26,328 bases of DNA from an uncultured Methanomicrobiales archaeon. GTDB lineage: Archaea > Halobacteriota > Methanomicrobia > Methanomicrobiales > Methanospirillaceae. A program made the position numbers and the translations under genes. The notes beneath the pieces were generated by a model, which saw nothing but the letters and a program-made list of their open reading frames with translations, was not told the DNA's origin and made no database searches. The stretch is from assembly GCA_963758915.1 (NCBI GenBank), contig CAVWXH010000011.1, positions 1 through 26,328 of the forward strand, in the 5' to 3' direction. Shown here one piece after another: positions 128-26,328 of this stretch. How positions within the stretch are numbered: the stretch's first letter is position 1; each line of letters starts with the position of its first letter.

Positions 128-836
128 ATGAATTGCGAACAACATGTTTCGTGGATCAGCAGGGTTAAAGAATCGTTCCGCTGCTCCTTCGGTGAGATTG
201 TCTTTGGCATGTCGGACGGTACCGTCTCGATTTTCGGCCTCGTGGCCGGTATGCTGGCGGGTGCCCAGTCCGGTGATGTTATCCTCCTTGCCGGTGCAAC
301 CGCAGCAATCGCGGCAACAGTCTCCATGATGGCGGGTGTCTTCATGGACCTTGAGTCAGAAAAGGATGCGGCCCGCGTGGAAGCGGAACGGCGGGCGGCA
401 GAGATCCATAGTGATCCCGATGGTGCTGTGAAGAAACTGATGGGTGATCTGCAGGGCTCCGGCCTGAGTCAGACAAGTCTTGATGCGATCCAGTGTTGAT
501 CTCCAGACGAATCCCCTCACCATCCAGAAGTTTGAGGATGCGGTATCAGCCGAGGAGGAGACGCCGGCAGAGAAAGCCCCGCCCTATGTCCATGCATGCT
601 GGATGGGGATTGCTGACTTCATCGCTGCGATGACCCCGGTTATCCCGTTTGCGTTCCTGCCAGTTGAACAGGCGAAGTATGTCTGCATTGCGGGGACTGC
701 GGTGCTCCTGCTCCTGCTGGGTATCGGGCGGGCACGGCTTGGCCAGCGCCCGTTATTCCGGACGGTGCTCGAGACCATGGCAATTGCAACCGCTGCGGGT
801 ATTGCCGGTGTGATCTTCGCCCTGATTATCACCTGA
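128..836 (+). CDS. VIT1/CCC1 family (DUF125) Fe/Mn transporter, split by one frameshift near 493
   Basis: ORF 128..499 has the VIT1 signature IVFGMSDGTVSIFGLVAG and AATVSMMAGVF. ORF 480..836 has the C-terminal helices (FIAAMTPVIPF, LLLLGIGRA). Removing one base at ATC CAG (T) GTT GAT joins them. Confidence 0.85.
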
Positions 837-3497: not shown

Positions 3498-3539
3498 TAT
3501 TTTTTGTCCTGATCTTAATTTTTGGTAAATTCGAACTAT

Positions 3540-9875: not shown

Positions 9876-10137
9876 GTTAAATGGCCCTTGCAGCGGATCT
9901 CAATCCACCGGTCCGGGTACCTGGGACGGATGGCCGGGTCAAGGTAAGACAACGGTTCACCAGATTATATTATCATAGGAGAGGGTTCAGGAAAAAAGGG
10001 AGCAACACTCCTGCCCGGGCAGGATAATCAACAACCCCTTTGTGATACGATACGTAAGGGCCCATAATCAGAACTTTTTTTTATACAATACTGATTTGAC
10101 ATCCACATTTATTACCTGTGGAACCCCATTGGGCAGT

Positions 10138-10732
10138 ATGCGAAAAATCCTTCTGGTGTCGTCTGCCGTTATAATTATCCTGCTTCTGGCCCTTTTTGTG
10201 CTGGCCCAGCCTGCTACAGAAACAATCCCCTACACAGTCAAAGGGAATACCGGAGAGATCGAGTTCCGGCACTACCCCGCAATGGTGCTTGCTACCGTGG
10301 ACAGTCCCGGGAGCGATGCCGGTTTCAGCCCGCTCTTTGCCTATATCTCGGGCAGCAATAAAGCCCGGAGTAAAATCCCGATGACCGCACCGGTAATAAC
10401 CTCGGAAAAGATCCCGATGACTTCCCCTGTTGTTTCAGATGCAGCATCAATGTCGTTTGTCATGCCGGCAGGATACATCCAGGGATGAGGTTCCCGACCC
10501 GCTGGACAGCAGGGTACGGATCGTCACGGTTCCCGAACGGGATGTTGCAGTCATCCGCTTTTCAGGGGATGGCACCCAACAGGATGTGGATGCGAAAACA
10601 TCCCTGCTGCAGGAAGGACTGAAAAATGCCGGCATTAAGACGGTGGGCCAGCCATTCCTGATGCGGTACGATTCGCCCTGGACACCCGGATTCCTCCGGC
10701 GGAACGAGGTTGGGGTGGAGATTACTCGGTAA
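10138..10732 (+). CDS. SOUL/HBP heme-binding paralogue with N-terminal signal/anchor, one frameshift near 10475
   Basis: MRKILLVSSAVIIILLLALFVLAQPA followed by the same SOUL motifs. One extra base in GGA TAC ATC CAG GGA TGA separates it from ORF 10430..10732 (SRDEVPDPLDSRV...YDSPWTPGFLRRNEV). Confidence 0.88.
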
Positions 10733-11635: not shown

Positions 11636-12871
11636 ATGGCACAGCTGACCGTCGATATCGGCGGACGCCCGGGGATCGACTGCCGGGGGTTCTGCGAGTA
11701 CTGCTACTTCAAGCGGGTGAAGGATGTCCCCCCGCTCGGGTGCCGGTACTGCCTGCCCTTCAAAAAAGGCTGTGATTATTGTTCACGGAGCGTGCAGGAG
11801 CAGTATTCCGGGTTTAAAAGTTTCCGGGACATCGCTGACGACACCCTCGCCCGCCTTAACGTGCTGAACGAGGACGTAAGCCGGGTCACCATCAGCGGTG
11901 GCGGGGACCCAAGCTGCTACCCGCGGTTCAGGGAATTAATCGAGCTCCTCTCCAGCATGGAGGCCCCGCTCCATATCGGGTACACGAGCGGGAAGGGGTT
12001 TGATTCCCCAAAAATTGCGAAATTCCTGATCGATAACAACATGTCGGAACTTTCCTTCACGGTATTCTCTACAAACCCCTCGCTCCGGAAACGGTATATG
12101 CACGACCCATCCCCTGAAATCTCGTTGAAAATACTCGATGAACTCTGCGGGGCGATCGATGTTTATGCCGCTGCCGTTGTCCTCCCGGGAATCAACGACG
12201 GCGACCGGCTGATGGAGACCTGCCAGTGGCTCGAGGACCGTGGAGCAAAGGGTATTATCCTGATGCGGTTTGCCAACTCCCGCGAAAACGGATTGATCCT
12301 CGGGAATGAACCGGTGATCAAGGGCCAGCGGGTCCATACCCCTGAAGAGTTCCGGGACATGGTGACCGATATTGCAGGCTGTTTTGGGCAGCTCAAAATA
12401 AGCGGGACACCCCTCTGGGACCCCAAAATCGGTTCGCCGTTTACACTCCTGAACGAACCTGACCTCATCGCAAAACTTCCCAGGATCACGAGGAAAGCGA
12501 GTATTATTACCGGTTCCATCGCAGCCCCGTTCATCAGGGACGTCCTTCTCCAGTGCGGACACGGGGCGTCCGTTATACCGGTAACAAAAGATATTGCCTG
12601 CCTGATTACCATTGAAGACTTAAAAAACCTCGACCTTTCAGCACTCGAAAAGACGGTCATCATACCCGGACGGGCGTTCGTGCATGACCGGGAGGCATCG
12701 AGCGTCCTCTCGGCAGACGGGGTGGAACGATTAGTGGTCCGTGGACCGGAGACGCTCACGGCCGACGCGGAGACCAGCATGGGGATGACCCGCAACGAGG
12801 TCCTTTCTCTCGAACTGGAAGGGTTTGCAGACCTTATCAGGGTGATCAACCAGTATGGGCAGCCGGGATAG
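11636..12871 (+). CDS. mmp10: Methanogenesis marker 10 radical SAM enzyme (MCR arginine methyltransferase)
   Basis: DIGGRPGIDCRGFCEYCYF (CxxxCxxC), second Cys cluster GCRYCLPFKKGCDYC, ISGGGDPSCYP, HIGYTSGKGF, KDIACLIT, IPGRAFVHD, VRGPETLTADAETSMGM. Confidence 0.93.
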   Translation: MAQLTVDIGGRPGIDCRGFCEYCYFKRVKDVPPLGCRYCLPFKKGCDYCSRSVQEQYSGFKSFRDIADDTLARLNVLNEDVSRVTISGGGDPSCYPRFRELIELLSSMEAPLHIGYTSGKGFDSPKIAKFLIDNNMSELSFTVFSTNPSLRKRYMHDPSPEISLKILDELCGAIDVYAAAVVLPGINDGDRLMETCQWLEDRGAKGIILMRFANSRENGLILGNEPVIKGQRVHTPEEFRDMVTDIAGCFGQLKISGTPLWDPKIGSPFTLLNEPDLIAKLPRITRKASIITGSIAAPFIRDVLLQCGHGASVIPVTKDIACLITIEDLKNLDLSALEKTVIIPGRAFVHDREASSVLSADGVERLVVRGPETLTADAETSMGMTRNEVLSLELEGFADLIRVINQYGQPG

Positions 12872-12919: not shown

Positions 12920-12940
12920 CAGCACTTTTTAGTGCTGGCA

Positions 12941-13035
12941 GATGTAAATCCGACGTGCTATTCTTGCACGGCCCATTCGTGGCTGGGGATTACGGGGAGT
13001 CAGCAGTGGCGGCTCTTTTCCCGGATTTACTGATC
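12941..13035 (+). ncRNA. Ribosomal protein S15 leader RNA (S15-Methanomicrobia-like motif)
   Basis: Closing stem GTAAATCCG (12944-12952) / CGGATTTAC (13022-13030) encloses hairpins CGTGC-TATTCTT-GCACG, CCA-TTCG-TGG and GAGTC...GGCTC. It lies just upstream of the SD GAGGTG and the rps15 ATG. Confidence 0.75.
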
Positions 13036-14736: not shown

Positions 14737-14963
14737 GCAGGTTAACAGTAGAAGGAGTCATTTTGACCAGGCACGGGCATTCCCCCGAGATGGCAGGCTC
14801 AATCCAGCCTGACAACCTCTCGAGCATGACCACCGGGGTGGAAGACGGGTGCGTGAAAACGGTCATCCGGAGCGAAAACCTCAGGTCCGTGATCGCTTCG
14901 GTTGACGATTACCTGATGAACCTGGGAATAGCGGAGGAGATATGTTCGTACGCTTTGCATTAG
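14733..14963 (+). CDS. pcc1: KEOPS complex subunit Pcc1
   Basis: ATG overlaps the DHH stop (ATGA). SIQPDNL...LRSVIASVDDYLMNLGIAEE is typical of Pcc1, and the position is conserved. Confidence 0.85.
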   Translation: MSRLTVEGVILTRHGHSPEMAGSIQPDNLSSMTTGVEDGCVKTVIRSENLRSVIASVDDYLMNLGIAEEICSYALH

Positions 14964-16477
14964 ATGCCGAACTTATATTCAGCGCTGACCTCACTCCCGA
15001 GGCGGTGCAGGCAGTCGGCACCCTCGTAGAGGAGTCCAACCGGACCCTGTTCCGGAAAGGAGTACCGGCTGGTGCCGGGGAAGACGAGATCGGCCGTATT
15101 GTCAGCTGGTCAGCTGAAGGGTCCCGGGTCTTCCTCTCGATCGAGAGCGGCCCGTACACCCGTGCACACGATGGCCTGTTCCGGTTCCGGAAGCAGATCG
15201 CACCGACACTCGGGCGGTTCCGGGTCGGGCTCCGGGATATCGTCGTGAAAGCATTCAGGATCACGATGAAAGGGGACTTCCCGAAGGAAGTCCATATCCC
15301 GAAGCTCCCCTTCATTACCCGGTCATGCCTCCTTGGCGATACCCTCGAAATGGAACTTGCGATGACGGCAGCCGACCTTGAAAACCGGGTCCCTGACCGT
15401 GTCGTCCGCCTGGTCGAGGAGAAAATCCAGGCATGCAGCTACGGGGGTAAAACCGAGCACTGGGAGCTCGTCTTCGAAAGCGGTCCAAAACCCCGGTTCT
15501 TTGAGAGCGACCCCACTGAAGAGATGATCAAGCGGAACTGGGTCAGGCATGCATTGTCCCGCGGACAGTGGATACATGCACCCCAGTCAGTCCAGCTCTT
15601 CCGGGCATTCGAGCAGATCGTCGTCGAGAAGATCATCGGACCAATGGGCTTTTCCGAGATGATCTTCCCGAAACTCGTCCCGTGGGAAGTCTGGAAGAAG
15701 TCCGGGCATGCAAAAGGGGTCTATCCGGAGATCTACTATGTTTGCACACCGAAAACCCGTGACCCGGCCTACTGGGAGGATGTTGGCGACTACTTCAAGG
15801 TGACCGGCGAGGTCCCGGTAGAGATGATCCGGGAAAAGATCGACGGACCTATCGGTGGGCTCTGCTATGCACAGTGCCCCTCGTTCTGGCCGTTCCTGCA
15901 GGGGGAGACCCTTGCAAACGACTGTCTCCCGATCCGGATCTTTGACCGGAGCGGGACCTCCCACCGGTACGAGAGCGGCGGGATCCACGGGATTGAACGC
16001 GTAGACGAGTTCCACAGGATCGAGATCCTCTGGCTCGGCACCGCTGAACAGACCGTTGAGACTGCAGACCGGCTCCACGAGGCATACCGGCATGTCTTCG
16101 AGGACCTCCTCGAACTGGAATGGCGTGCAGCACGGGTAACACCGTGGTTCATGGCACAGGAAGGGATGATCGAGACCGAGACGGAAAGCAGCTGCGGTTG
16201 CGGCTCACGGATTGGGACAACCGATTACGAGGCGTTCCTCCCGTACAACAAGAGCTGGCTCGAGTTCCAGAACGTTAGTATCAATGGGGACAAGTACCCG
16301 ACCGGGTTCAACGTGAAGATCCAGAGCGGTGTGGACTGCTGGTCAGGCTGCTCAGGCATCGGCCTTGAGCGGTGGACCGCTGCGTTCCTCGCACAGAAAG
16401 GCCTTGACATGGATAAGTGGCCGGAAGCGGTCGCAAAACTGGTCGGAGAGCCAAAAGAACTATTCAAATTCCTTTAA
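14942..16477 (+). CDS. serS: Serine--tRNA ligase, methanogen-type (type 2, Zn-dependent)
   Basis: IESGPYTRAHDGLFR, VPDRVVRLVEEK, GGKTEHW, LCYAQCPSFW, DRSGTSHRYESGGIHGIERVDEFHRIE, WLEFQN, WSGCSGIGLERW, including the Cys/Glu/Cys zinc ligands of the rare SerRS class. Confidence 0.94.
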   Translation: MFVRFALDAELIFSADLTPEAVQAVGTLVEESNRTLFRKGVPAGAGEDEIGRIVSWSAEGSRVFLSIESGPYTRAHDGLFRFRKQIAPTLGRFRVGLRDIVVKAFRITMKGDFPKEVHIPKLPFITRSCLLGDTLEMELAMTAADLENRVPDRVVRLVEEKIQACSYGGKTEHWELVFESGPKPRFFESDPTEEMIKRNWVRHALSRGQWIHAPQSVQLFRAFEQIVVEKIIGPMGFSEMIFPKLVPWEVWKKSGHAKGVYPEIYYVCTPKTRDPAYWEDVGDYFKVTGEVPVEMIREKIDGPIGGLCYAQCPSFWPFLQGETLANDCLPIRIFDRSGTSHRYESGGIHGIERVDEFHRIEILWLGTAEQTVETADRLHEAYRHVFEDLLELEWRAARVTPWFMAQEGMIETETESSCGCGSRIGTTDYEAFLPYNKSWLEFQNVSINGDKYPTGFNVKIQSGVDCWSGCSGIGLERWTAAFLAQKGLDMDKWPEAVAKLVGEPKELFKFL

Positions 16478-17376: not shown

Positions 17377-17856
17377 ATGCAATATATTATCCAGGTTCTG
17401 ATCCTGCTGTTCGGGTTTATATTTGGTTATTTCATGTACGAATTATACCGGTACCGTGCAGGAGGTGTGATCGCCATCCCGATCCTCGTGCTGTACACCT
17501 TTGAATCCCCGATCGCACTCCCTATATTTATCTATTCGGTGGCTATCTGTTACCTGATCGGGTTCATTATCACCGAGAAGACGCTGATTTACGGGAGACG
17601 GCTCCTTTACCTCTACCTGACCACGTCACTCCTGGTTACCAGTTTTTCGTTTTTTTTCGTCCTCTATTACCTGAACATGGACCTCCTGACGATTACCATC
17701 GGTGCAATATTCCCGGGGCTCATTGCCTATAATATCTCCCGTGAAGCATATTCCTTCAAGGCAGGGTTAAATACAGTCCTGATGATGATCTGGCATTTCT
17801 TTATCGTCGTAATGTTCGGTGTTATTATCTTACTGGCATCAGGGTGGAGGCCTTGA
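17377..17856 (+). CDS. capC: Poly-gamma-glutamate biosynthesis membrane protein CapC/PgsC
   Basis: About 159-aa highly hydrophobic protein with YRAGGVIAIPILVLY, LIYGRRLLY and IGAIFPGLIAYNISRE, matching CapC motifs (LYGRR; G..VPGLIA). TATA-like TTTTAAA at about 17340. Confidence 0.88.
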   Translation: MQYIIQVLILLFGFIFGYFMYELYRYRAGGVIAIPILVLYTFESPIALPIFIYSVAICYLIGFIITEKTLIYGRRLLYLYLTTSLLVTSFSFFFVLYYLNMDLLTITIGAIFPGLIAYNISREAYSFKAGLNTVLMMIWHFFIVVMFGVIILLASGWRP

Positions 17857-18979
17857 AGGACTTTATCCCCCGGATCGATGGCCGGATACGGATGGTCCGG
17901 GATTTCAAGGAAAAGATCGATAAGGTCCCACTCAGGATCGTCGTGGAGGGTACCGGGGGAAGTCCTCAACCGTTATGATGGTTGCAGAGATGTTACGGGG
18001 ACTGGACAGGGTCACCCTCGCCAAGGTGACAGGTGAGAACCCGATTGTAATGTTTGGTGGCGTCGTAATGCCACTGTACCGGGAGAATAATTCTGTCCTC
18101 CTTGATTACGAGATCATTCCCGAAGTCCTGAATTTTAATTTTGACTCGCTTGTGTTTGAAAACCAGGCAATATCACCCTACACGATGCAGTATTTTCACA
18201 AGGTGATCAACCCGACCCACGTGATTATCCCGAATATCAGGCTCGACCATGTCGAGAGCCTTGGGGAGGACCTTGTTGAAATAACAGAAAATTTTGCCCA
18301 CAATTACTACGTGCACAGGTCAAAGGTTGAAGTCTATTATATTGAGCCCATTGAATCTGTTCACCGGGTCGTGTATCCCATCCTGAAGGAAGCCGCACAA
18401 GACCTCCCGGACATTGTGACCCTCCATGATGTCCCCGTCCCGGAACAATACCAGTACCTCCCGGGGGCAGAGAACATCCTGATCAGTACCTACTTTATCA
18501 GACACTATTTTGGTGTGGATATCGATGAAACGAGATACCTCCGGAGGCTCGAGGGAAACCTCACCATCAGGACCGGCCCTGACGGGATCCGTTATATCAG
18601 CCTCGCGAAAGTGAACGATCCGGCCTCGTTCCTATCAATGATGAAATATTTTCTGGCCAGAACCGAGGATGATGTAATCCTCGTGGGATATTTCCGGAGG
18701 GACCGGATCGGGAGAAATTACCTCTTTGAGACGATAATGCCGGAAGTAGAAAAATTATACGGGCACCGGATACGGAAGATCTGGCTTGCAGGGCACGCCT
18801 CAAAACATGCATTTGACAGGTTTTCTCCTGAAACCCAGGAAAAAACGTATTACTGGGTCGGCAATGAAAGCATTGACTCAATCATCGCATACGCTAAAAA
18901 GCATAATTACATCCTCATCACGATGGTTAACCGCGTGAATAAATTCATGGATGAACTCTATGAAAAAATGGTTGTGTGA
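17853..18979 (+). CDS. capB: Poly-gamma-glutamate synthase CapB/PgsB (Mur ligase family), one missing base near 17955
   Basis: TTG at 17853 overlaps the capC stop and reads MKDFIPRIDGRIRMVRDFKEKIDKVPLRIVVEGT. Adding one base gives the P-loop GT(R)GKSST, in frame with ORF 17975 (AKVTG, VFENQAISP, PNIRLDHVESLG, AKVNDPAS, RRDRIGR), all recognisable PgsB motifs. Confidence 0.87.
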
Positions 18980-18982
18980 GTA

Positions 18983-19735
18983 ATGCAACTCAGGGGCAGT
19001 CATGTAGCATGTATCGTTATGCTCCTTGCCCTTTTCGTTTCAGCGATATCATCCGGGTGTGCACAGCTTGATGCCCGGCTGGAAGATGTGTACCTTACCC
19101 TTACGACCAGCCGGGAGCCCTGTACCGCGGGTAGCAGCCTGCCGCACCAGGGCAGTGTGCTGCTGCTCCGTGAAGCAGAACGGCAACTTGGCCGTATGAA
19201 CGCGTCACGTTACTCCCATGAAACCTATATCGATGAAACGAACGGGACCTACGAGTACGATTGTTCTGGTTTTGTCGGGTATGCCCTCTCCAGGGCCGAC
19301 CCGTGTGCAATGAGTGTCCTCCTGCATAAACGGCCTGATGCAGGGAATTTTTATTATCATTTCATCCAGTTCGGGCCTTCACCGGGCAGCGGTGGTTGGA
19401 TGAGCGTTTCGACACCAACCGAGCTTCGCCCCGGGGATATCATTGTCTGGCTGAAACCAGATGAATCAGATGCAAAGAGCACCGGCCATATCATGATTGT
19501 TGCAGGAACCCCCGGGCCAAACCCGGAACGTGATGGTGAGATCCTCGTCAGGGTAATCGATTCAACAACGTCTCCCCATGCAGATGATACAAGAAAACCC
19601 GGCCAGACCGGTCTTGGAAAAGGGACAATTGGCATAATGACAGGACCGTCAGGGCACCCGTCCGGATATTACTGGCGGGGAGGGGTGTCTTCGGCCCTGC
19701 AGGAGACGAAAATGGTATTTGCACGGATTGCATGA
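18983..19735 (+). CDS. NlpC/P60-like cysteine hydrolase lipoprotein
   Basis: Lipobox-like ISSGC, catalytic YEYDCSGFVGY, LRPGDIIVW, TGHIMIV, then VIDST. Starts 3 nt after the capB stop. Confidence 0.78.
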   Translation: MQLRGSHVACIVMLLALFVSAISSGCAQLDARLEDVYLTLTTSREPCTAGSSLPHQGSVLLLREAERQLGRMNASRYSHETYIDETNGTYEYDCSGFVGYALSRADPCAMSVLLHKRPDAGNFYYHFIQFGPSPGSGGWMSVSTPTELRPGDIIVWLKPDESDAKSTGHIMIVAGTPGPNPERDGEILVRVIDSTTSPHADDTRKPGQTGLGKGTIGIMTGPSGHPSGYYWRGGVSSALQETKMVFARIA

Positions 19736-19796
19736 GTGAAAAACGGGTAAAGATACCTTTAAATCATAACTGGTATAGTTCAGAGGTACGGCTATC

Positions 19797-21947
19797 ATGG
19801 TAAAGGATGTCCAGGTAATACTGGTTGCATTTGTCATATCGATCGTGTTTTTTTCAGCACTGGCCCTCGTGTTCGGCGACGGGAAAGAGCCCGTGGTCCC
19901 AGGCCATGGAACCCCCGTAACACCAGCTCCTGGTATCACCGTAACACCGCCGGCACAGGTAACCCCTGCAGGACCTTTACAAGAGGTCCGGCTGGTAACG
20001 ACCACGGATTTTTATAATACAGGCCTGCTCCAGTACCTGAAACCGCTGTTCGACGAACAGTACCATGCTGACCTCCGGGTGATTGCCAGTGACGCGAACG
20101 GGGCGGTTGCAACAGCGAAACGGGGTGATGCCGATATCCTGCTGCTGAATGATCCAATCCGCGAACGGGCATTTCTTGAAGAAGGGTACGGGGTGAACCA
20201 CAGGACCTTTGCCAGTAATTCCTTCATCATCATCGGGCCTTCAGATGATCCTGCCGGTATCAGGGGTATGAATGCGTCGGGAGCCCTGCAGAGGATTTTT
20301 GAAGCGGGAAGCGCCGGAGAACCAGGGGTCCTCTTCATATCACGCGGTGATGGTTCAGAAATTCACCGGGTTGAGCTGGCAGCCTGGAATAGTGGGGGAT
20401 CCACGCCAGGAAAAATGGCATTTTCTCCGGCCTTCTGGTACATTGAGGTGGATAAAGGGGCAGATGAGACCATAAAAATTGCCGGCGACCTGCAGGCATA
20501 TACCATTGCCGACAACGCCAGTTACCATGGATACCAGGCAGACCTGACCCTCGAACCGCTTGTTTCGGGAGGGGGACTGCTGTTCAACGGTTACAGCACC
20601 ATTTCTGTCTTCAATGACCTGCAACCGGTTGAACGGATCAGAATGGCCAATAATTTCACTAATTTTATGCTATCCACGGAGATACAGGACGAGATTGGAA
20701 GCTATGGCAAAGGGAAATACGGGATACCGCTCTTTATACCGACGGTAGGGAATACAATTCCAGTACCTGAGGACTACATGACGAACCTCACTGCCCCGGC
20801 TGTTGCGGTCAGGCCGTTAAAAGTACTTTACCCCTCGACAAATCCCTCAATTTTTGGAAAGTTCCGGAAAAAATTTGAGCAGCTCCATCCCCTGACCGAC
20901 GTGCAGCTCTGGCCGGGGAGCAATGCAGATAACACGGATAAGGTCAGCCGGTATGGGGGCTTCAGCGACCTGCTTGCGACCACCAGCGAAAACCTCGTCA
21001 TCGATGACCTCTACCCGGATGATGTGACGTTCCTTGTCACCTACGCGAAAAATGGCATGGTGATCGCCTACACCAATAAGAGCAGGGGTGCAGCGATCAT
21101 TAACGAGACCAACTGGTACAGGGTGCTTGAAACCGACCGGGTAACGTATGCCACAAGTGACCCCAACGAAGAACCGGTCGGTTACCGGGCGTATATGGTC
21201 ATCGAACTCGCTGAACGGTATTACGGCGATCCCGGGATCTTTGACCGCCTGGTCAGTTCCCATAGCAACATCACGGAAGTCACGTACCGGGACAGTTACC
21301 GCGGCCGCTGGACGGTTAATGTCACCAATACGTCCCCGGACAACCGGAAACTGTTCATTTCGAGACCTGGGGGGATATCAACAACACAGATGCTTGATGA
21401 TGGCAGGGTTGATTACATCTTTACCTACCAGAGCCTGGCCACGAGGGAGGGGTTTAAGTATATTGCACTCCCGCCGGAGATCGACCTGTCGGACCCCAAC
21501 ATGTCCGGGCGTTACGAACTCGTGCGTGTTATCCGGGCGCCGGAAACAATCGTAGTCAGGGCAACGGGCACGACTATTACAACCTCCGGAGATGAGGGTT
21601 ACCCGGGTACAATTGCCGGGTTTACCGGTATTACATCAGGGGCAGGGGAGGATATTCTCGTGACAGACATGGCTGCAGCAAATCCTGCTGTTTCGTTACG
21701 TTCGGGATCTCTCTGGATACTGCGATCAACAGGGCCAAGGACTGTCATCGGCAGGCCATTGACCTACGGTATTACGATACCGGCAAGTGCCCGCAACACG
21801 GAAGGGGCTGCCGAGTTTATCAACCTGGTCATCAGTGGGCAGGGGCAGGCAATTACCAGTTCGGAAGGGCAGGTACCAATCGTTCCTGCCATCGCGTACG
21901 GATATGGGATCCCGTATTTCCTGCTGCCAAAACTGCAATTCGTCTGA
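19797..21947 (+). CDS. Membrane-anchored fusion of TupA-like and WtpA/ModA-like substrate-binding domains, with divergent ligand motifs
   Basis: N-terminal TM helix and Pro/Thr linker. TupA-like half: VTTTDFYNTGLLQYL, KRGDADILL, NSFIIIGPSDDPAGI, FISRGD. WtpA-like half: YAKNGMVIAYT.KS, INETNWY.VL, SDPNEEPVGYR, VDYIFTYQSLA, LPPEIDLSD, LTYGITIP. Confidence 0.85.
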   Translation: MVKDVQVILVAFVISIVFFSALALVFGDGKEPVVPGHGTPVTPAPGITVTPPAQVTPAGPLQEVRLVTTTDFYNTGLLQYLKPLFDEQYHADLRVIASDANGAVATAKRGDADILLLNDPIRERAFLEEGYGVNHRTFASNSFIIIGPSDDPAGIRGMNASGALQRIFEAGSAGEPGVLFISRGDGSEIHRVELAAWNSGGSTPGKMAFSPAFWYIEVDKGADETIKIAGDLQAYTIADNASYHGYQADLTLEPLVSGGGLLFNGYSTISVFNDLQPVERIRMANNFTNFMLSTEIQDEIGSYGKGKYGIPLFIPTVGNTIPVPEDYMTNLTAPAVAVRPLKVLYPSTNPSIFGKFRKKFEQLHPLTDVQLWPGSNADNTDKVSRYGGFSDLLATTSENLVIDDLYPDDVTFLVTYAKNGMVIAYTNKSRGAAIINETNWYRVLETDRVTYATSDPNEEPVGYRAYMVIELAERYYGDPGIFDRLVSSHSNITEVTYRDSYRGRWTVNVTNTSPDNRKLFISRPGGISTTQMLDDGRVDYIFTYQSLATREGFKYIALPPEIDLSDPNMSGRYELVRVIRAPETIVVRATGTTITTSGDEGYPGTIAGFTGITSGAGEDILVTDMAAANPAVSLRSGSLWILRSTGPRTVIGRPLTYGITIPASARNTEGAAEFINLVISGQGQAITSSEGQVPIVPAIAYGYGIPYFLLPKLQFV

Positions 21948-22234
21948 TAATTCTCTTTTTTCGAGTTACACATCAACACCCGCCTGCCCCGGCTGGGAAA
22001 TCAATGTCGTGTATTAGCGCCCCGTGGGTTTTTCCGGGGCTGTTACCTGGCCTCCGGAAATAGTTATTGGATACCCGTTTGGCAGCACGGCAGAATTACC
22101 AGGCTAACACGACCGAGACACTTTTAGTTCACGGGGAATATACTGATGAAGAGGGAACACAGGTGTACACGGGTCACCGGTGACTCCGGTTAAGAGAGAG
22201 CAGGATGTTGCAGGAAGGACCAGGTGACGGATAA

Positions 22235-22616
22235 ATGCCTCACAGGAAAGTCCGGGTACTGGTTGTTGAGGATGACGGGAAGTTACGCGAAGTTCTTCAG
22301 GCTTTTTATCAAGAAATACGGCTACCACCTGTGCGGTGTGGCCGAATCCGGGGAAGAGGCCCTTGAACTTATCAAGGAAACCTCCCCGAACCTTGTCTTT
22401 ATCGATATCGTGCTGAAAGGGAAGATGACCGGGATCGGCCTTGCACGCCATATCAACCGGGAAGTCAGAATCCCCTTCATCTATATAACGGGACACTCGG
22501 ATGCACACATTATTGAAGAAGTGATCCATACGCGCCCCAGTGCATTCATCCTGAAGCCTTTTGTCGGCGAGGAGCTGAAAGTCGCAGTGGAAATTGCAAT
22601 ACGGAAGAAAACCTGA
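22235..22616 (+). CDS. Stand-alone response regulator receiver, one extra T near 22305
   Basis: Reconstructed MPHRKVRVLVVEDDGKLREVLQAFIKKYGYHLCG...PNLVFIDIVLKG...IYITGH...FILKPF, with acidic pocket, phospho-Asp, Thr and Lys present. Confidence 0.88.
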
Positions 22617-22733
22617 TTTTTTCCCCATATTATTGCTAATATGAGCCCCCTGTTAATTCAGACCTAAAAGCCGGGGGGTAATTCATGAAATGAGAATTTT
22701 TCATGGCAGGTTACATTTTGTTATCTGGATAAA

Positions 22734-22777
22734 ATTTTTGGCTTTTCTCCCGGTCCGGAGAGATAGAAGCCAAAAAT
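22734..22777. repeat. Strong inverted repeat between receiver genes
   Basis: ATTTTTGGCTT / AAGCCAAAAAT (11 bp, perfect) with an inner TCTCC-CGGTCC-GGAGA stem. Confidence 0.7.
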
Positions 22778-22921
22778 GAACCCAGCATTAATGTTCCCGG
22801 AATTTGAGGTATATAACCTGATTAAGATGAATATTTCTAAAATAAAAATATTTAAATAAAAAAAATTTAATTAGATCAATGCTAATACCCTCTTAAAGAA
22901 GACTGGGGGGTTTCGGGATTA

Positions 22922-23290
22922 ATGGCGGATACGAAAAATACTCGTTGTAGATAGTCTTGGAGAGAGTGAACGTCTCACATCCTTTATCAAAAAGTTCGGG
23001 AACCATCTTTGCGGTGTGGCGGAATGCGGGGAAGATGCCATGAAACTGATCGGTGAGACGAAGCCGGACCTGCTTTTTATCGACATGGCATTGAAAGATC
23101 AGATGAACTGTACGGGTCTTGCATGCCATATCAACGAGAATAAGATCCCGTTCATCTTTATGACCGAACATGCAGATGCACACATTATTGGAGATATTAC
23201 GGGTACCCGTCCCAATGCATTCCTGATGAGGCCGTTCGGGAAGAAGAAATCCGTCTCGCAGTAGAGATCGCAATGCAAAAAAAATCCTGA
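22922..23290 (+). CDS. Degenerate receiver protein, paralogue of 22235-22616, frameshifts near 22934 and 23240
   Basis: Reconstructed MA..KILVVDSLGESERLTSFIKKFGNHLCGVAECGEDAMKLI.ETKPDLLFIDM...FIFMTEHADAHII...AFLMRPFG.EEIRLAVEIAMQKKS, collinear with the preceding receiver. Confidence 0.78.
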
Positions 23291-23522
23291 TTCATCCTGG
23301 ATATGGATGATTCCGTGGCTTTTTCTCTATCCATCACGCACCGCTTTCTTTTATCTACCAGGTCAGAGATGTGAAACCAAACATTGTATTCGGTTATTCA
23401 GTCTCGAAACAACAAGGCAATGGAACTTTTCACAGACCAGGATTTTACAATGAGAATGATTATCATGTATCAGTTTTCATTACCAATTATAGATACAATG
23501 GAAAAGAGGTTTACAGAGTTCA

Positions 23523-23892
23523 ATGGCTGAAACAAGAATTCTCGTGGTGGATGATGAAGAAAATATCCTGACTATTTTCCGCCTGGCACTTGAGAGCAGG
23601 GGCTACAAGGTAGATACCGCTGGCCACCGCCGCTGAAGCCCTCGAAAAGGCAAAGTCTACTACCTACCAGGTCTGTCTCCTTGATATCAATCTCCCTGAT
23701 ATGCATGGTACAGAACTGTTAAAATTGATGCATCAGATCGATCCGTCTATGAAAAAACTGATGGTCACCGGGGACTGGGCACCAAGGGATGTTGAACTTG
23801 CAAGGAAAAACGGGGCTGATGAGTTCGTTGCAAAACCCCTTAGCAAGGCGGACCTTATCGCAGTCGTTGAAAGTGTGTTGACGCCCACCTGA
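23523..23892 (+). CDS. Stand-alone CheY-like receiver, one extra G near 23622
   Basis: Reconstructed MAETRILVVDDEENILTIFRLALESRGYKVDTAATAAEAL...CLLDINLPDMHG...MVTG...GADEFVAKPL. Confidence 0.88.
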
Positions 23893-24017
23893 TCCAGGTC
23901 ATTCTGTCAATCCGGGTTATTGGTTCTTTCCGGGAGACCTTGGTTCGGGCATATCGGAAAAAAAGATAACCTCGTGAGAACAGCATATACATGAACGGAT
24001 AATCCGGGTGTAGTACC

Positions 24018-26271
24018 ATGACAATGAAACCCTGCAGGCGGAATTATTACCTCGCCATCGCATTGCTGGTATTACTCACCGTCATCGTCGCTCCTTATTA
24101 TTGTCCTCATGGCAAACGCCGATGTCGTGACAAAGGAAAATATGGCACGGCAACAGGTTTTAAAAGAGCCCGTCAACCTCCGGGGAACCATCATAAGCGA
24201 AAATGGAAACCCGGTAAAGGGGGCGACGGTATCCCTGCAGGATAAGACAGCGGTCACGACCGGAAGCGGTTCATTTACCCTTGACGGGATAACCCGCCAG
24301 AACAGCCTGATGGTGATCGATGCCCCGGGTTTCAGGAGAGAGTTCATCCCGGTCCACCTTTTCCTTCCCGTTTCGGTCGGCGGGGTAGAGACTGGACCCG
24401 GTCTATATGATAGAGGCCGACCCCGGAGAGGTCAGGTTCCTTTTCGGGGGCGACACCCATTTCGGACGCCGCTATATTGACCCCATGGAAATTACCCCGA
24501 GAGACCAGCTGCCCCCTGATAACAAAAGTGCCCTTATCAGTGTTTCAGACCCCGGACCTGGTACACGCGAGGTCCTCAGGTACGTCCGGCCATTCTTCCA
24601 GGAGGCCGATTTCAGCAGTGTGAACCTTGAATCACCGGTCACCCTGAACGTGTCAACACCACACCTGACAAAAGACTATGTCTTAATGACCCTGCCGGGT
24701 TCATTGCCTGCATTACAATGGGCGGGCATATCCTATGTTTCGCTCGGGAACAACCATGTCTACGATTACCGTGAGCAGGGACTTTCAGATACCATCTCCT
24801 CCTTACAGGCTGCAGGCATCGCCTATAGTGGTGCAGGGCCCAATGCTACTGAGGCATTCAAAGCATATCGTGTCGTTTTGAACGGTACCCCGTATGCAAT
24901 CCTCGCGATGAATTCCATCGATGGCATTGAACATCCCATCAATTATGTTGCTGATGACCGAAAAGGCGGGTCGGCAAACCTGAAAGATACCACGATGGTG
25001 ACCTCTGCCATTGGGCGTGAACTGGATGAGGGCTTTGTTCCGATCGTACAGGTCCACGGGGGCGATGAATATGTCTATGAACCCCCGGATTACATCAGCG
25101 GACGGCTGGACATGGTGACGGATGCCGGTGCGGGGCTGGTGGTATCAGAACACTCCCATATTGCAGAGGGGGTCGGGATCAGGAATGGGGTTGTAGTTAT
25201 AGAAGGTCTTGGCAACCTCGCCTTTGATGCCGAACGCCACGAGACGATGCTCGGCCTCCTTGCACGGGTTGACATGAACGGGAAGGAGATCCGGTCTGTC
25301 CGGCTCATCCCGGTCTACATCGGCAATTTCACGCCACGCCTGGTTTCCGGGGGGGTCGCTGACATACTCCTGCGCCGGGTTGGGGAGTTTTCAAAGGACT
25401 CACCGTACCCGGTCTACCCCTATAACGGACAGGGGTGGGTAGCCCTCGGGGAAAAACAGGTCAGCGAGAAACGCGATCGTACTGCCAGGGTGAACATTAC
25501 CATACCCGAATCCGGTTCAACGGTGCTTTGACCTCCCCAGACTGGCCCATAGCAGTGAATCCCTGGCAGGTATCAGGATAATGTTACCGGCAGCCAGGTC
25601 CGCTTGGGCGTGACCTGATGATCTACGGGGACTTTGAAGACTGGAACGTTGATGATACGGTGGGGGTGGCTGACCAGTGGGATACTTCAGCGGGCTCAGT
25701 GGAACTTGCAGTTACCCAGCCGTACAGCGGGACCCAGAACCTCATGAGTATCCGCCAGTTCGGTAACACCAAAGACTCCGTGATCCCGTTCAGGAACAGG
25801 ATCCGCGTCATGGGGGATGCCCGAAACCAGGCTAACCCAATAAAAATCTCACGTTTATCGGGTATATCCGGGGAAGGGATGCCGGACCCGTGAAGATTGT
25901 TTCGAAATACCTCGCGAGCGAAAATCCGGTAGATGGTGGACCGGGGATGACATTTGGCGAGGAAAAATCATGGCCCGTTCCCGGGGGGTACCTTCCCGTG
26001 GCAGCAGTATGTCGCCGATATCCATATGCCACCCGATGACCCCGGAGTCCCGAGAAACCCCGTAACGGACCCAAGGGCACTCCAGGTCTTTATCCACCAT
26101 TCGGCATCGCCGAAAACCACAAGCATCGCTGAGTTCGATGATTTCGCCATTATTTCCTGGGAGGAGACGGTCAACAGTCAACGGGGTGCAACACTTAGGA
26201 CCCCTCATGCCAGGGATTTCCTCCGGATTAACGGGACACCAGGTACCCACCAGCTCGACCCTGACGTTTGA
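24018..26271 (+). CDS. capA: Large CapA/PgsA family (PGA_cap metallophosphatase-like) protein with TM anchor, beta-sandwich domain and C-terminal extension; multiple frameshifts
   Basis: TM segment (24018), carboxypeptidase-regulatory-like domain (GTIISENGNPVKGATV...T.GSGSFTL), CapA motifs GGDTHFGR, VNLESP, SLGNNHVYDY, AYSGAG, VHGGDEY, SEHSH, GLGNLAFD, then a C-terminal region (YGDFEDW...GTFPWQQY). Breaks near 24093, 24390, 25528, 25575-25610, 25838 and 25965. The true stop is uncertain (26271 or about 26298). Confidence 0.83.
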
Positions 26272-26328
26272 ATCGTATCCCCCTCTTTTTGGCGGTAAGC
26301 AGCACAGGGTAGTGATTTCCTCGCTGCC

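What the first reader, a model, noticed from the sequence alone, without database searches (positions are those of the whole stretch)
17377..26271. Apparent poly-gamma-glutamate capsule/slime system in a methanogen (capC-capB-NlpC/P60 ... capA)
Seen: capC overlaps the capB start, an NlpC/P60 gene begins 3 nt after capB, and a large capA lies about 5 kb downstream on the same strand, the whole block following the rps15-rps3ae operon. capB is easy to miss because a frameshift removes its P-loop from the ORF track. Known: CapB plus CapC form the PGA synthase in Bacillus (order B-C-A), and archaeal PGA is mainly reported from haloarchaea. Here the order is C-B, CapB lacks the N-terminal TM helix of Bacillus PgsB, and no capD, capE or glutamate racemase is visible in the window. 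Inference: this methanogen makes and remodels an extracellular glutamate polymer for aggregation, metal binding or stress protection. I know of no characterised example in this group but cannot search the literature.
Basis: partly seen in the sequence, partly recalled or inferred. Interest (0 to 1): 0.85.

Follow-up and report, generated by a model that had tools for sequence, protein, structure and literature searches.

The report
Polyglutamate synthase-like locus in methanogen
An uncultured methane-producing archaeon carries a divergent, archaeal-type version of the genes bacteria use to make poly-glutamate slime, but several of them are interrupted in this assembly, probably by sequencing errors, and the polymer itself is unproven.

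Summary
capC-like (17377-17856), a frameshifted capB-like ligase (17844-18979), an NlpC/P60/CHAP-like lipoprotein (18983-19735) and a large broken PGA_cap protein (24018 to the contig end) are all present on the + strand.

capB-like is a true PgsB relative: hhalign gives 99.2% probability, and PgsB is its best NCBIfam model. It still scores far below the PgsB equivalog cut-off (72 against 222.7 bits) and has no transmembrane helix. It belongs to an archaeal-type clade separate from bacterial PgsB.

capC-capB adjacency holds in 6 of 6 other Methanomicrobiales loci. The CapA-like protein and a response regulator join the pair in the Methanoregulaceae-type subset, and the NlpC/P60-like gene recurs beside capA in a rearranged Methanoregula locus.

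The capB frameshift is one missing base inside the P-loop. It is one of at least 12 frame breaks on this 26-kb MAG contig, two of them in unrelated genes. Intact copies of four of the broken genes, at 88-99.7% identity to the window, exist elsewhere. An assembly artefact is therefore likelier than decay.

The product, poly-gamma-glutamate or a related polymer, is inferred only. I found no published report for Methanomicrobiales, though CapB homologues are already known in haloarchaea and some Methanosarcinales. This is a new member of a known kind, of moderate interest.

The parts
17377..17856 (+). capC-like polytopic membrane protein, 159 aa, intact.
   Evidence: Pfam Caps_synth_CapC scores 69.7 bits against a cut-off of 27. 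NCBIfam PgsC scores 37.3 bits, below its cut-off of 96.45. Several hydrophobic segments are present. Conserved motifs T-L-L-Y-G-R-R-L-L-Y and F-P-G-x-I-A-Y-N are shared with 5 other methanogen loci and Halogranum. The exact sequence is in the public collection.
17844..18979 (+). capB-like ATP-dependent amide ligase with a Mur-ligase/FPGS fold. It would be 378 aa when read through. It is broken by one missing base between 17954 and 17955, inside the P-loop. The start is GTG 17844 or TTG 17853, and both overlap the capC stop.
   Evidence: The intact homologue P0091 is identical at 342 of 343 aligned residues. PgsB is the best NCBIfam model at 72.4 bits, against a cut-off of 222.7. hhalign against bacterial PgsB gives 99.2% probability. 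The AlphaFold2 model of P0091 has pLDDT 86.8, and Foldseek matches MurF, FPGS, MurD, pMurE and CphA.
18983..19735 (+). NlpC/P60/CHAP-like predicted lipoprotein, 250 aa, intact. Candidate gamma-glutamyl endopeptidase.
   Evidence: Pfam CHAP gives E 4e-4 and 21.3 bits, below the cut-off of 26. Of 31 family members, 13 hit CHAP and 4 hit NLPC_P60 at E<=0.01. D-C-S-G (Cys94), G-H (His169) and Asp193 are invariant and His199 is conserved in at least 90% of members. An N-terminal hydrophobic segment is followed by S-G-C. The homologue in L001 is 65.6% identical and lies beside capA-like.
19797..21947 (+). Membrane-anchored double solute-binding protein (TupA-like plus WtpA-like), 716 aa, intact. It is a neighbour only, and belonging to the system is not shown.
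   Evidence: Pfam PBP_like_2 plus SBP_bac_11. NCBIfam TupA and WtpA are both below cut-off. It appears to be syntenic only in close relatives, judged from cluster members reported with the same longest-contig lengths. It is absent from L001-L007.
22235..22616 (+). Receiver-domain gene 1 (stand-alone response regulator), frameshifted near 22240-22290. It is the counterpart of the regulator that follows capB in L001 and L003.
   Evidence: Pfam Response_reg. tblastn gives 70.6% identity to the L001 regulator and 57.8% to the L003 regulator.
22922..23264 (+). Receiver-domain gene 2, with a probable frameshift near its start (about 22930).
   Evidence: No intact reference was found, so the break is inferred from the three-frame translation.
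23523..23892 (+). Receiver-domain gene 3, with one frameshift near 23624.
   Evidence: The intact 122-aa homologue P0312 aligns as residues 1-34 in one frame and 34-122 in another.
24018..26328 (+). capA-like large surface protein: N-terminal anchor, CarboxypepD_reg domain, PGA_cap metallophosphatase-fold domain and an unassigned C-terminal domain of about 350 aa. It has at least 6 frame changes (about 24093, 24365-24399, 25603-25609, two within 25880-25985, and 26237-26256). The last frame runs off the contig end.
   Evidence: Pfam PGA_cap scores 149.4 bits against a cut-off of 27, and CarboxypepD_reg scores 38.6 bits. tblastn with the intact homologues L001 (752 aa) and P0308 (758 aa) maps the breaks.

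Best explanation
The locus is an archaeal-type relative of the bacterial poly-gamma-glutamate (PGA) synthase system.

Shown:
- A cytoplasmic, TM-less ligase with a Mur-ligase/FPGS fold (capB-like) is encoded immediately after, and overlapping, a small polytopic membrane protein (capC-like).
- The ligase shares the P-loop, the N-x-R-x-D-H motif and C-terminal N-D / R-x-D-R motifs with bacterial PgsB.
- This pairing is conserved across Methanomicrobiales loci.

Inferred:
- CapB uses ATP to activate a glutamate gamma-carboxylate as an acyl phosphate and adds glutamate units.
- CapC tethers CapB to the membrane and passes the chain outwards.
- The anchored PGA_cap multidomain protein handles the chain outside the cell, possibly epimerising it.
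- The NlpC/P60-like lipoprotein trims or releases the polymer, as PgdS does in Bacillus.
- Stand-alone receiver proteins regulate the system.
- The product is most likely PGA or a closely related gamma-linked glutamyl polymer, used as a surface or matrix polymer.

The frame breaks in capB, the three receivers and capA on this contig are most likely consensus errors of the assembly. The organism probably has a working system.
For: Homology of the ligase:
- PgsB is the best NCBIfam model for the ligase, and for all 81 representatives scanned.
- hhalign against bacterial PgsB gives 99.2% probability, E 7e-20, over 268 columns.
- 29 columns are invariant across 33 archaeal and bacterial sequences, including G-x-R-G-K-S, N-x-R-x-D-H, N-D and R-x-D-R.
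- The model has pLDDT 86.8 and a two-domain Mur-ligase fold.

Gene neighbourhood:
- capC passes Pfam.
- capC lies directly upstream of capB in 6 of 6 other methanogen loci and in Halogranum.
- In Halogranum the pair is flanked by two Gamma_PGA_hydro genes.
- Archaeal PgsB hits include Natrialba aegyptia. The same paper cites Hezayen et al. 2000 for archaeal polymer production. That N. aegyptia itself produces PGA is recalled.
- CapA-like lies within 6 kb in L001 (divergent) and L003 (co-directional). A receiver gene follows capB in both. One family member has the receiver fused to the ligase (P0201).
- The NlpC/P60 homologue lies beside capA-like in L001.

Literature:
- The PgdS gene sits directly after the pgs operon in B. 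subtilis (passages seen).
- CapA has been proposed as a chain epimerase (passages seen).

Artefact reading of the breaks:
- 12 breaks occur on one contig, including VIT1 and SOUL.
- Intact copies exist elsewhere: capB P0091 (378 aa, seen on 4 contigs, 342/343 identical), capA P0308 (758 aa), receiver P0312 (122 aa) and VIT1 P0321 (235 aa).
Against: - Both core proteins fail the NCBIfam equivalog cut-offs (72.4 against 222.7, and 37.3 against 96.45). Substrate and product cannot be read from homology.
- In a tree rooted arbitrarily on the PgsB-passing proteins, those proteins and the archaeal-type group separate with SH-aLRT 100.
- No archaeal CapBC has been tested, to my knowledge and in the searches made.
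- CapA-like was absent from the neighbourhoods scanned by Pfam at 4 of 6 other methanogen loci. Its family is widespread in bacteria not known to me as PGA producers.
- The NlpC/P60 assignment is below Pfam's cut-off, and no structure could be predicted.
- A second contig of 249,417 bp also carries the truncated 334-aa capB form (P0095), although its VIT1 is intact. The capB break could therefore be real in a sub-population.
- Breaks are strongly concentrated in 22.1-26.3 kb: 9 of 12, binomial P about 1e-5. They are not all in homopolymers. Real decay of the regulator-capA block would also fit this pattern.
Confidence: 0.6

Rival explanations
1. The synthase is real, but the product is not free PGA. 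The capCB pair would build a different glutamyl polymer. Candidates are a poly-gamma-glutamyl or poly-gamma-glutaminyl backbone that is glycosylated or attached to the S-layer or sheath, as in the glutaminylglycan of Natronococcus, or short oligo-glutamyl decorations.
For: - The family is a separate clade scoring 50-110 bits on the PgsB model, against 169-436 for the bacterial group. The split has SH-aLRT 100.
- Authors of the pseudomurein pangenome paper suggest haloarchaeal CapB may make glutaminylglycan (passages seen).
- The large CapA-like protein has extra domains, CarboxypepD_reg and an unassigned 350-aa C-terminus, that are not listed among the Pfam domains here for a simple CapA.
Against: - No glycosyltransferase or amidotransferase gene is in the cluster among the ORFs scanned.
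- Halogranum's homologous pair is flanked by two PGA-hydrolase-family genes.
- The shared catalytic motifs with PgsB are complete.
Confidence: 0.2
2. In this organism the system is a decaying remnant. The frame breaks in capB, the three receiver genes and capA are real mutations, and no polymer is made.
For: - 10 of the 12 breaks fall in capB, the receivers and capA. 9 of 12 lie in the last 4.2 kb (binomial P about 1e-5).
- Break sites are not typical homopolymer errors.
- A second, independent contig also has the 334-aa capB form.
- The clade is patchy. Only 6 Methanomicrobiales species representatives matched among the 185,579 species genomes that the tool description gives for the collection scanned by pattern.
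Against: - Unrelated genes (VIT1, SOUL) are broken too.
- capC, the NlpC/P60-like gene and the 716-aa SBP are intact.
- Intact alleles exist for capB, capA, receiver 3 and VIT1, at 88-99.7% identity to the window.
- The other long contig has a different set of breaks: SBP split, VIT1 intact. This is what error-prone consensus gives.
- There are six frame changes in one 2.3-kb gene with no large deletions. The flanking sequence remains readable at 72-88% identity to an intact homologue. This is unusual for slow decay.
Confidence: 0.2
3. capC-capB is the whole system. The distant capA-like gene and the NlpC/P60-like gene are unrelated neighbours. The capA-like protein would be a general surface metallophosphatase-fold enzyme. 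The NlpC/P60-like protein could be an enzyme aimed at bacterial cell walls.
For: - The Pfam-scanned neighbourhoods of 4 of 6 other methanogen loci hold neither a PGA_cap protein nor an NlpC/P60 homologue.
- CapA-like has full-length bacterial homologues in Nitrosomonas, Methylococcaceae, Myxococcus and others.
- PGA can be made without pgsA in B. subtilis (title and abstract start only). CapsuleFinder treats CapA as accessory (passage).
- Five kb and five other genes separate capB and capA in the window.
Against: - capA-like is near capCB in three different arrangements: the window, L001 (divergent) and L003 (co-directional).
- The NlpC/P60 homologue travels with capA-like in L001.
- Family members of capB, NlpC/P60 and capA are each reported with a longest contig of 26,527 bp (P0007, P0123, P0327). 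That they share one contig is inferred from that length alone.
- Methanomicrobiales have no murein of their own for an NlpC/P60 enzyme to act on (established knowledge).
Confidence: 0.25
4. capB-like is a cytoplasmic cofactor-tail glutamyl ligase, acting on the oligo-glutamyl tails of F420, methanopterin-type or methanofuran cofactors, rather than a polymer synthase.
For: It has no TM helix. Its fold is shared with folylpolyglutamate synthase. FolC is the second-best NCBIfam model.
Against: - It overlaps the membrane protein capC in every locus, which suggests translational coupling.
- Its distribution is patchy and accessory, which does not fit a core cofactor step.
- It lies in variable genomic locations: after rps3ae here, and beside mcrA in L002 and L005.
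- Known tail ligases belong to other families (CofE; ATP-grasp MptN and MfnD; recalled).
Confidence: 0.04

Closest known systems
Bacterial PgsB-PgsC-PgsA(-PgsE) / CapBCA(DE) poly-gamma-glutamate synthase (Bacillus and others; NCBIfam TIGR04012, TIGR04011; Pfam PF14102, PF09587)
   Same: Homologous ligase (hhalign 99.2%), with shared P-loop, N-x-R-x-D-H, N-D and R-x-D-R motifs. A homologous small membrane partner passes Pfam. A PGA_cap protein lies nearby. A papain-fold hydrolase gene follows directly after the synthase genes, as pgdS does.
   Different: - The order is C then B, with overlapping reading frames.
- The ligase has no N-terminal TM helix.
- Both core proteins are far below the equivalog cut-offs and form a separate clade.
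- capA-like is about 750 aa with extra domains and is not in the same operon.
- Receiver-domain genes are associated with the cluster.
- No capD/GGT, capE or racemase was seen.
Haloarchaeal capC-capB loci (Haloquadratum walsbyi as annotated in 2006; Halogranum amylolyticum locus L007)
   Same: Same archaeal-type side of the tree. The C-B order holds. Both are below the PgsB cut-off (99.7 bits for L007). Both are predicted from sequence only.
   Different: - Only 28% identity to the methanogen family.
- The haloarchaeal clade is separate, with SH-aLRT 100.
- Halogranum has a doubled CapC (383 aa) and two PghP-type hydrolases instead of an NlpC/P60-type.
- Several members of that clade carry HVO_2922/DUF1508 fusions. 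Their haloarchaeal origin is inferred from the clade and the family name, because those representatives carry no taxonomy.
PgdS (YwtD), the secreted gamma-PGA endo-hydrolase of Bacillus subtilis
   Same: A secreted or anchored enzyme encoded immediately downstream of the synthase genes (position in Bacillus: passage). The window protein keeps a Cys-His-Asp/His set typical of NlpC/P60/CHAP enzymes.
   Different: That PgdS belongs to NlpC/P60 is recalled, not tested here. The window protein is a single-domain lipoprotein-like protein with only sub-threshold CHAP similarity. No direct comparison with PgdS was made.
Folylpolyglutamate synthase / Mur ligases / cyanophycin synthetase ligase domain
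   Same: Two-domain fold. Foldseek E is about 1e-7 to 4e-11 over the listed matches, with TM about 0.6 for the best-fitting ones (MurF, FPGS/FolC, MurD, MurE, pMurE).
   Different: Sequence models for these families score about 18-24 bits, against 72 for PgsB. There is no N-terminal substrate-binding domain of Mur type. The ligase is partnered with a membrane protein.
MslH, the lasso-peptide C-terminal epimerase (a CapA homologue)
   Same: It is the only NCBIfam model hit by the window's PGA_cap piece (E 9e-8). Its authors propose from it that CapA is a chain epimerase. That would explain the absence of a racemase gene.
   Different: The score of 30.9 bits is far below the cut-off of 700. The architecture and context are different.

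Membership tests
PgsB/CapB (NCBIfam TIGR04012 equivalog) | Scores at or above the curated whole-protein cut-off of 222.7 bits. | tested here: not met
   P0091, the intact homologue 99.7% identical to the window, scores 72.4 bits. The window's downstream piece scores 52.9 bits. Bacterial comparators score 380-436 bits.
PgsB/CapB (NCBIfam TIGR04012 equivalog) | Mur-ligase-type ATPase core with P-loop and metal/ATP-binding motifs, closer to PgsB than to other ligase families. | tested here: met
   PgsB is the best model by a wide margin (72 against 24 bits). hhalign gives 99.2% probability. 29 columns are invariant with bacterial PgsB. The fold was checked.
PgsB/CapB (NCBIfam TIGR04012 equivalog) | N-terminal membrane-spanning helix. 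| tested here: not met
   The hydropathy scan finds no segment in P0091 and a segment at residues 1-19 in bacterial P0039. The match to the PgsB profile starts at about position 20.
PgsB/CapB (NCBIfam TIGR04012 equivalog) | Encoded next to a PgsC/CapC partner. | tested here: met
   The pair is adjacent and overlapping in the window, in 6 of 6 methanogen loci and in Halogranum. The order is reversed relative to Bacillus.
PgsB/CapB (NCBIfam TIGR04012 equivalog) | Polymerises glutamate through gamma-amide bonds. | not testable with these tools
   This needs expression and chemistry. Complex prediction with CapC was unavailable.
PgsC/CapC (Pfam PF14102; NCBIfam TIGR04011) | Passes the family model. 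| tested here: inconclusive
   Pfam gives 69.7 bits against a cut-off of 27, so that test is met. The NCBIfam equivalog gives 37.3 bits against 96.45, so that test is not met.
CapA/PgsA (Pfam PF09587 PGA_cap) | PGA_cap metallophosphatase-fold domain present. | tested here: met
   149.4 bits against a cut-off of 27. The intact homologue P0308 scores 142.5 bits.
CapA/PgsA (Pfam PF09587 PGA_cap) | Is the third subunit of a PGA synthase, encoded with B and C. | tested here: inconclusive
   It lies within 6 kb in the window, L001 and L003, but was not found in the scanned neighbourhoods of the other 4 methanogen loci. The same 750-aa architecture is common in bacteria. No PgsA-specific model matched.
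NlpC/P60 / CHAP papain-fold hydrolases (Pfam PF00877, PF05257) | Passes the family model. | tested here: not met
   CHAP scores 21.3 bits against a cut-off of 26. At E<=0.01, 13 of 31 relatives hit CHAP and 4 of 31 hit NLPC_P60. The PDB profile search gives only E 0.055-0.35 to C40 peptidases.
NlpC/P60 / CHAP papain-fold hydrolases (Pfam PF00877, PF05257) | Conserved catalytic Cys and His with a third polar residue. | tested here: met
   Cys94 (D-C-S-G), His169 (G-H) and Asp193 are invariant in 31 sequences, and His199 is conserved in at least 90%. The assignment of these residues as catalytic is by analogy.
NlpC/P60 / CHAP papain-fold hydrolases (Pfam PF00877, PF05257) | Papain-like fold. | not tested
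The Atlas lead for homologue P0126 has an NLPC_P60/CHAP cluster at 0.92 as the nearest named cluster.

The most novel reading that the evidence does not exclude
Methanomicrobiales carry their own ancient branch of the PgsB/PgsC machinery. It would be a soluble ligase docked on CapC, switched by a dedicated receiver protein. A giant surface CapA-like enzyme would epimerise or anchor the chain, and an NlpC/P60-type depolymerase would trim it. The product would be a glutamyl surface polymer not yet described for any methanogen, shaping aggregation, metal binding or syntrophic contact in wetland and sediment methanogens. The polymer could differ chemically from Bacillus PGA.
Probability: 0.25. Interest if true: 0.65.

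Novelty: new member of a known kind. Interest (0 to 1): 0.42.

Why it matters
If the genes work, some uncultured Methanoregulaceae-type and Methanomicrobiaceae-type methanogens make an anionic poly-amino-acid envelope or matrix polymer. No such polymer is described for this order in the literature I could search. It would bear on how these methanogens aggregate, bind metals, resist drying or salt, and attach to syntrophic partners.

The locus also offers a compact, TM-less CapB plus CapC pair. That pair might be easier to study biochemically than the unstable Bacillus complex. The conserved receiver-domain partner, including one natural ligase-receiver fusion, points to phosphorelay control, which I do not know of for bacterial PGA synthases.

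There is a practical lesson too. The apparent inactivation of capB and capA sits on a contig with at least 12 frame breaks. It should not be read as biology without the reads.

Tried and rejected
- Complex prediction of CapB with CapC was not available. Nothing can be said from it.
- A structure prediction of the NlpC/P60-like protein failed.
- The Atlas look-up of the window's own NlpC/P60 protein was not possible. The stored homologue P0126 gave only a lead.
- I suspected that the longer representatives whose match starts near residue 150 were CapC-CapB fusions (P0179, P0183, P0186, P0188, P0192, P0193, P0194). Pfam showed no CapC domain in any of the 7, and DUF1508 in 3 of them (P0183, P0186, P0193). 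The idea was rejected.
- I tested whether all frame breaks sit in homopolymer runs. They do not, for example at the VIT1, receiver 3 and first capA sites. A simple homopolymer-error explanation was rejected.
- The sigma-70 promoter and terminator scan is not meaningful for an archaeon and gave nothing usable.
- No tRNA was found. The only Rfam hit is the S15 leader.
- The PDB holds no PgsB-like structure among the Foldseek or profile hits, so substrate-site comparison was impossible.
- The cofactor-tail ligase idea was considered and set aside (see rivals).
- The Cloacimonadota PGA paper and the Haloferax annotation preprint held nothing on archaeal capBC.
Synteny on metagenome contigs rests on equal contig lengths reported for different proteins, which is suggestive only.

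Full report
**What is there**

The window is a whole 26,328-bp contig of a Methanomicrobiales/Methanoregulaceae-type MAG. Its proteins are listed with a longest contig of 26,328 bp, and their 90%-identity clusters carry names such as 'Methanomicrobiales archaeon'. An S15-Methanomicrobia leader lies at 12921-12993.

After rps15, a DHH protein, the methanogen-type SerRS and rps3ae, the + strand carries the following genes.

- **capC-like, 17377-17856.** 159 aa. Pfam Caps_synth_CapC scores 69.7 bits against a cut-off of 27.
- **capB-like ligase, 17844-18979.**
- **NlpC/P60/CHAP-like ORF, 18983-19735.** It starts 3 nt after the ligase stop.
- **716-aa double solute-binding protein, 19797-21947.** TupA-like plus WtpA-like.
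- **Three stand-alone receiver-domain genes, 22235-23892**.
- **Large PGA_cap protein, from 24018/24024 to the contig end**.

**The capB frameshift**

The upstream frame (GTG 17844, or TTG 17853) reads through V-V-E-G-T and then runs into a stop at 17976-17978. The downstream frame is open from 17924 and reads R-G-K-S-S-T-V-M-M and onwards. Intact homologues read V-V-E-G-T-R-G-K-S-S-T. So one base, the first of the Arg codon, is missing between 17954 and 17955.

P0091 is 378 aa and was seen on 4 contigs. It is identical at 342 of 343 aligned residues and is intact. I used it as the stand-in for the window's ligase.

**Is the break real?**

The contig has at least 12 frame breaks:

| Gene | Breaks |
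|---|---|
| VIT1 (position 494) | 1 |
| A SOUL gene (about 10430-10488) | 1 |
| capB | 1 |
| Receiver genes | 3, one each |
| capA | at least 6 |

Intact versions of four of the broken genes exist elsewhere, at 88-99.7% identity to the window: VIT1 (235 aa), capB (378 aa), receiver 3 (122 aa) and capA (758 aa).

A second long contig of 249,417 bp has a different break pattern. Its SBP is split and its VIT1 is intact, but it shares the 334-aa capB form.

Two points count against a pure artefact reading. Nine of the 12 breaks lie in the last 4.2 kb (binomial P about 1e-5). The sites are also not all homopolymers.

I rate assembly error as the more likely cause, at roughly two to one. Only the reads can decide.

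**What the ligase is**

PgsB is its best NCBIfam model (72.4 bits). FolC follows at 24 bits, and pMurE and MurC at about 18 bits. The PgsB cut-off is 222.7 bits.

Profile-profile comparison with bacterial proteins that pass the PgsB model gives 99.2% probability, E 7e-20, over 268 columns reaching into the C-terminal domain.

Across 33 archaeal and bacterial sequences, 29 columns are invariant. They include the P-loop, N-x-R-x-D-H, N-D and R-x-D-R.

The AlphaFold2 model has pLDDT 86.8 and pTM 0.84. It matches MurF, FPGS/FolC, MurD, pMurE, MurT and cyanophycin synthetase (E down to 4e-11, TM about 0.6). No PgsB structure was among the hits.

The protein has no hydrophobic segment, whereas bacterial PgsB has one at residues 1-19.

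**Family and phylogeny**

A full HMM search of 1.84 billion representatives found 1251 hits at E<=1e-3, 900 at 1e-10 and 57 at 1e-30. Of the 81 representatives I scanned, all had PgsB as their best model. The scores were bimodal:

- 45 at 50-110 bits
- 15 at 169-222 bits
- 21 above the cut-off

I built a quick IQ-TREE with SH-aLRT support only. It used 84 rows: P0091, 10 of the 38 homologues, 7 locus proteins, 45 low-scoring representatives, 20 PgsB-passing representatives and P0039. Fragments and the intermediate scorers were left out. The tree was rooted arbitrarily on the PgsB-passing rows.

It separates the passing group from all low scorers with support of 100. It recovers a 15-row Methanomicrobiales clade (100) whose sub-clades follow taxonomy. 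It also recovers a separate 20-row clade holding Halogranum (100). P0034 and P0035 fell outside the Methanomicrobiales clade.

**Context elsewhere**

The pattern scan of the species-representative genome collection returned 7 loci from 243 pattern matches. Six are Methanomicrobiales MAGs at 44-49% identity. The seventh is Halogranum amylolyticum at 28%.

- **capC-capB pairing.** capC lies directly upstream of capB in all six methanogen loci. L003's capC is itself frameshifted. In L002 and L005 the overlap is 4 nt. The window's TTG start would give the same kind of overlap.
- **L001 (Methanoregula sp.).** A 752-aa CarboxypepD_reg plus PGA_cap protein lies about 0.9 kb upstream, divergent. A full-length homologue of the window's NlpC/P60-like gene (65.6% identity) follows it on that strand. 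A receiver gene follows capB.
- **L003.** The order is capC-capB-receiver-capA.
- **The four Methanomicrobiaceae-type loci.** Their scanned neighbourhoods show only capC-capB.
- **Halogranum.** A doubled CapC and the ligase are flanked by two Gamma_PGA_hydro genes.
- **Fusions.** One family member has a receiver domain fused to the ligase (P0201).
- **Close relatives of the window.** They appear to keep capC-capB-NlpC/P60-SBP together, judged from cluster members reported on contigs of 5,517, 20,271 and 249,417 bp. Proteins of all three families (capB, NlpC/P60, capA) are reported with a longest contig of 26,527 bp. This is inferred from the lengths alone.

**The accessory proteins**

*NlpC/P60-like protein.* It has an N-terminal hydrophobic segment followed by S-G-C. 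D-C-S-G, G-H and Asp193 are invariant in 31 relatives, and His199 is conserved in at least 90%. Its CHAP score is below cut-off (21.3 against 26). Of 31 relatives, 13 hit CHAP and 4 hit NLPC_P60 at E<=0.01. PDB profile hits to C40 peptidases are marginal. Its fold could not be predicted.

*capA-like protein.* It keeps its PGA_cap domain (149 bits). However, the same 750-aa architecture occurs at 40-48% identity in many bacteria. Membership in a PGA synthase therefore rests on synteny only.

**Literature**

I saw passages only, unless stated otherwise.

- CapB is reported in Gammaproteobacteria, Bacilli, Synergistota, Halobacteria, a few Methanosarcinales and Korarchaeota (PMC11915815 and its preprint).
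- A 2015 BLAST survey lists Halobacteriales (including Natrialba aegyptia), Methanococcoides methylutens and Korarchaeum. It found no archaeal PgsC (PMC4497714, text and supplement look-up).
- H. walsbyi capC and capB were annotated in 2006 (PMC1544339).
- CapsuleFinder's genome list includes six Methanomicrobiales. In my supplement look-ups only Methanoregula formicicum appeared in a system row, as Syn_cps3 and not PGA (PMC5542703).
- CapA has been proposed as a chain epimerase (PMC8179263).
- Six searches found no paper linking Methanomicrobiales with CapB or PGA synthesis.

**Verdict**

This is a genuine archaeal-type CapC-CapB system, with plausible CapA-like, hydrolase and regulator partners, in a lineage where it has not been reported. 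The product is inferred, and the breaks are probably artefacts. It is a new member of a known kind and of moderate interest.

Noticed in passing
window 128-836; 10042-10732: A VIT1 iron/manganese transporter gene and the second of two tandem SOUL haem-binding genes are each split by a frameshift. VIT1 has one extra base at 494 relative to an intact 235-aa homologue. These breaks in unrelated genes are the main reason to distrust the capB and capA breaks.
   Followed up: yes
window 19797-21947: A 716-aa membrane-anchored fusion of two oxyanion-type solute-binding domains (TupA-like plus WtpA-like). No ABC permease or ATPase gene lies next to it. It is wedged between the NlpC/P60-like gene and the receivers, and is seen only in close relatives. 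Whether it serves tungstate uptake or has to do with the anionic polymer is open.
   Followed up: partly
window 22235-23892: Three tandem stand-alone receiver-domain genes, all frame-broken, in a low-GC stretch (0.44 against 0.53 for the contig). No histidine kinase is in the window. L003 has a PAS/GAF kinase about 5 kb beyond its capA.
   Followed up: partly
window 17377-18979 and 22200-23892: capC (GC 0.456), capB (0.485) and the receiver block (0.444) are below the contig mean of 0.53. capCB sits in different places in different genomes: after rps3ae here, beside the mcr operon in L002 and L005, and beside a Hef-type helicase in L003. This suggests an accessory, possibly transferred, cassette.
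   Followed up: partly
L007 7488-12224: The Halogranum amylolyticum locus reads PghP-type hydrolase, doubled CapC (383 aa, two CapC repeats), CapB-like, then a second PghP-type hydrolase. A bacterio-opsin-activator-like regulator follows.
   Followed up: partly
proteins P0174, P0183, P0186, P0193, P0185, P0201 (representatives): Archaeal-type CapB-like ligases occur fused to HVO_2922/DUF1508 domains, to DUF7504 and, once, to a response-regulator receiver domain.
   Followed up: partly
L001 5880-6617 (- strand): A Galaxin-repeat, Cys-rich protein lies between the capA-like gene and the divergent capC-capB pair in the Methanoregula MAG. Its role is unknown.
   Followed up: no
window 11636-12871; 12921-12993; 14942-16477; 3522-5939: Housekeeping context: Mmp10 (the methyl-coenzyme M reductase arginine methyltransferase, so named in its cluster), the S15-Methanomicrobia leader RNA, the methanogen-type seryl-tRNA synthetase, and a LonA-type protease with an N-terminal substrate-binding domain.
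   Followed up: no
proteins P0343, P0351, P0365, P0367, P0413 and others: The 750-aa CarboxypepD_reg plus PGA_cap plus C-terminal-domain architecture is shared at 40-48% identity, over 85-95% of the query for the full-length named hits, with proteins named from Nitrosomonas, Methylococcaceae, Crenotrichaceae, Gammaproteobacteria and, as a partial protein, Myxococcus. This is a widespread and apparently unstudied family of 'large CapA' proteins.
   Followed up: no
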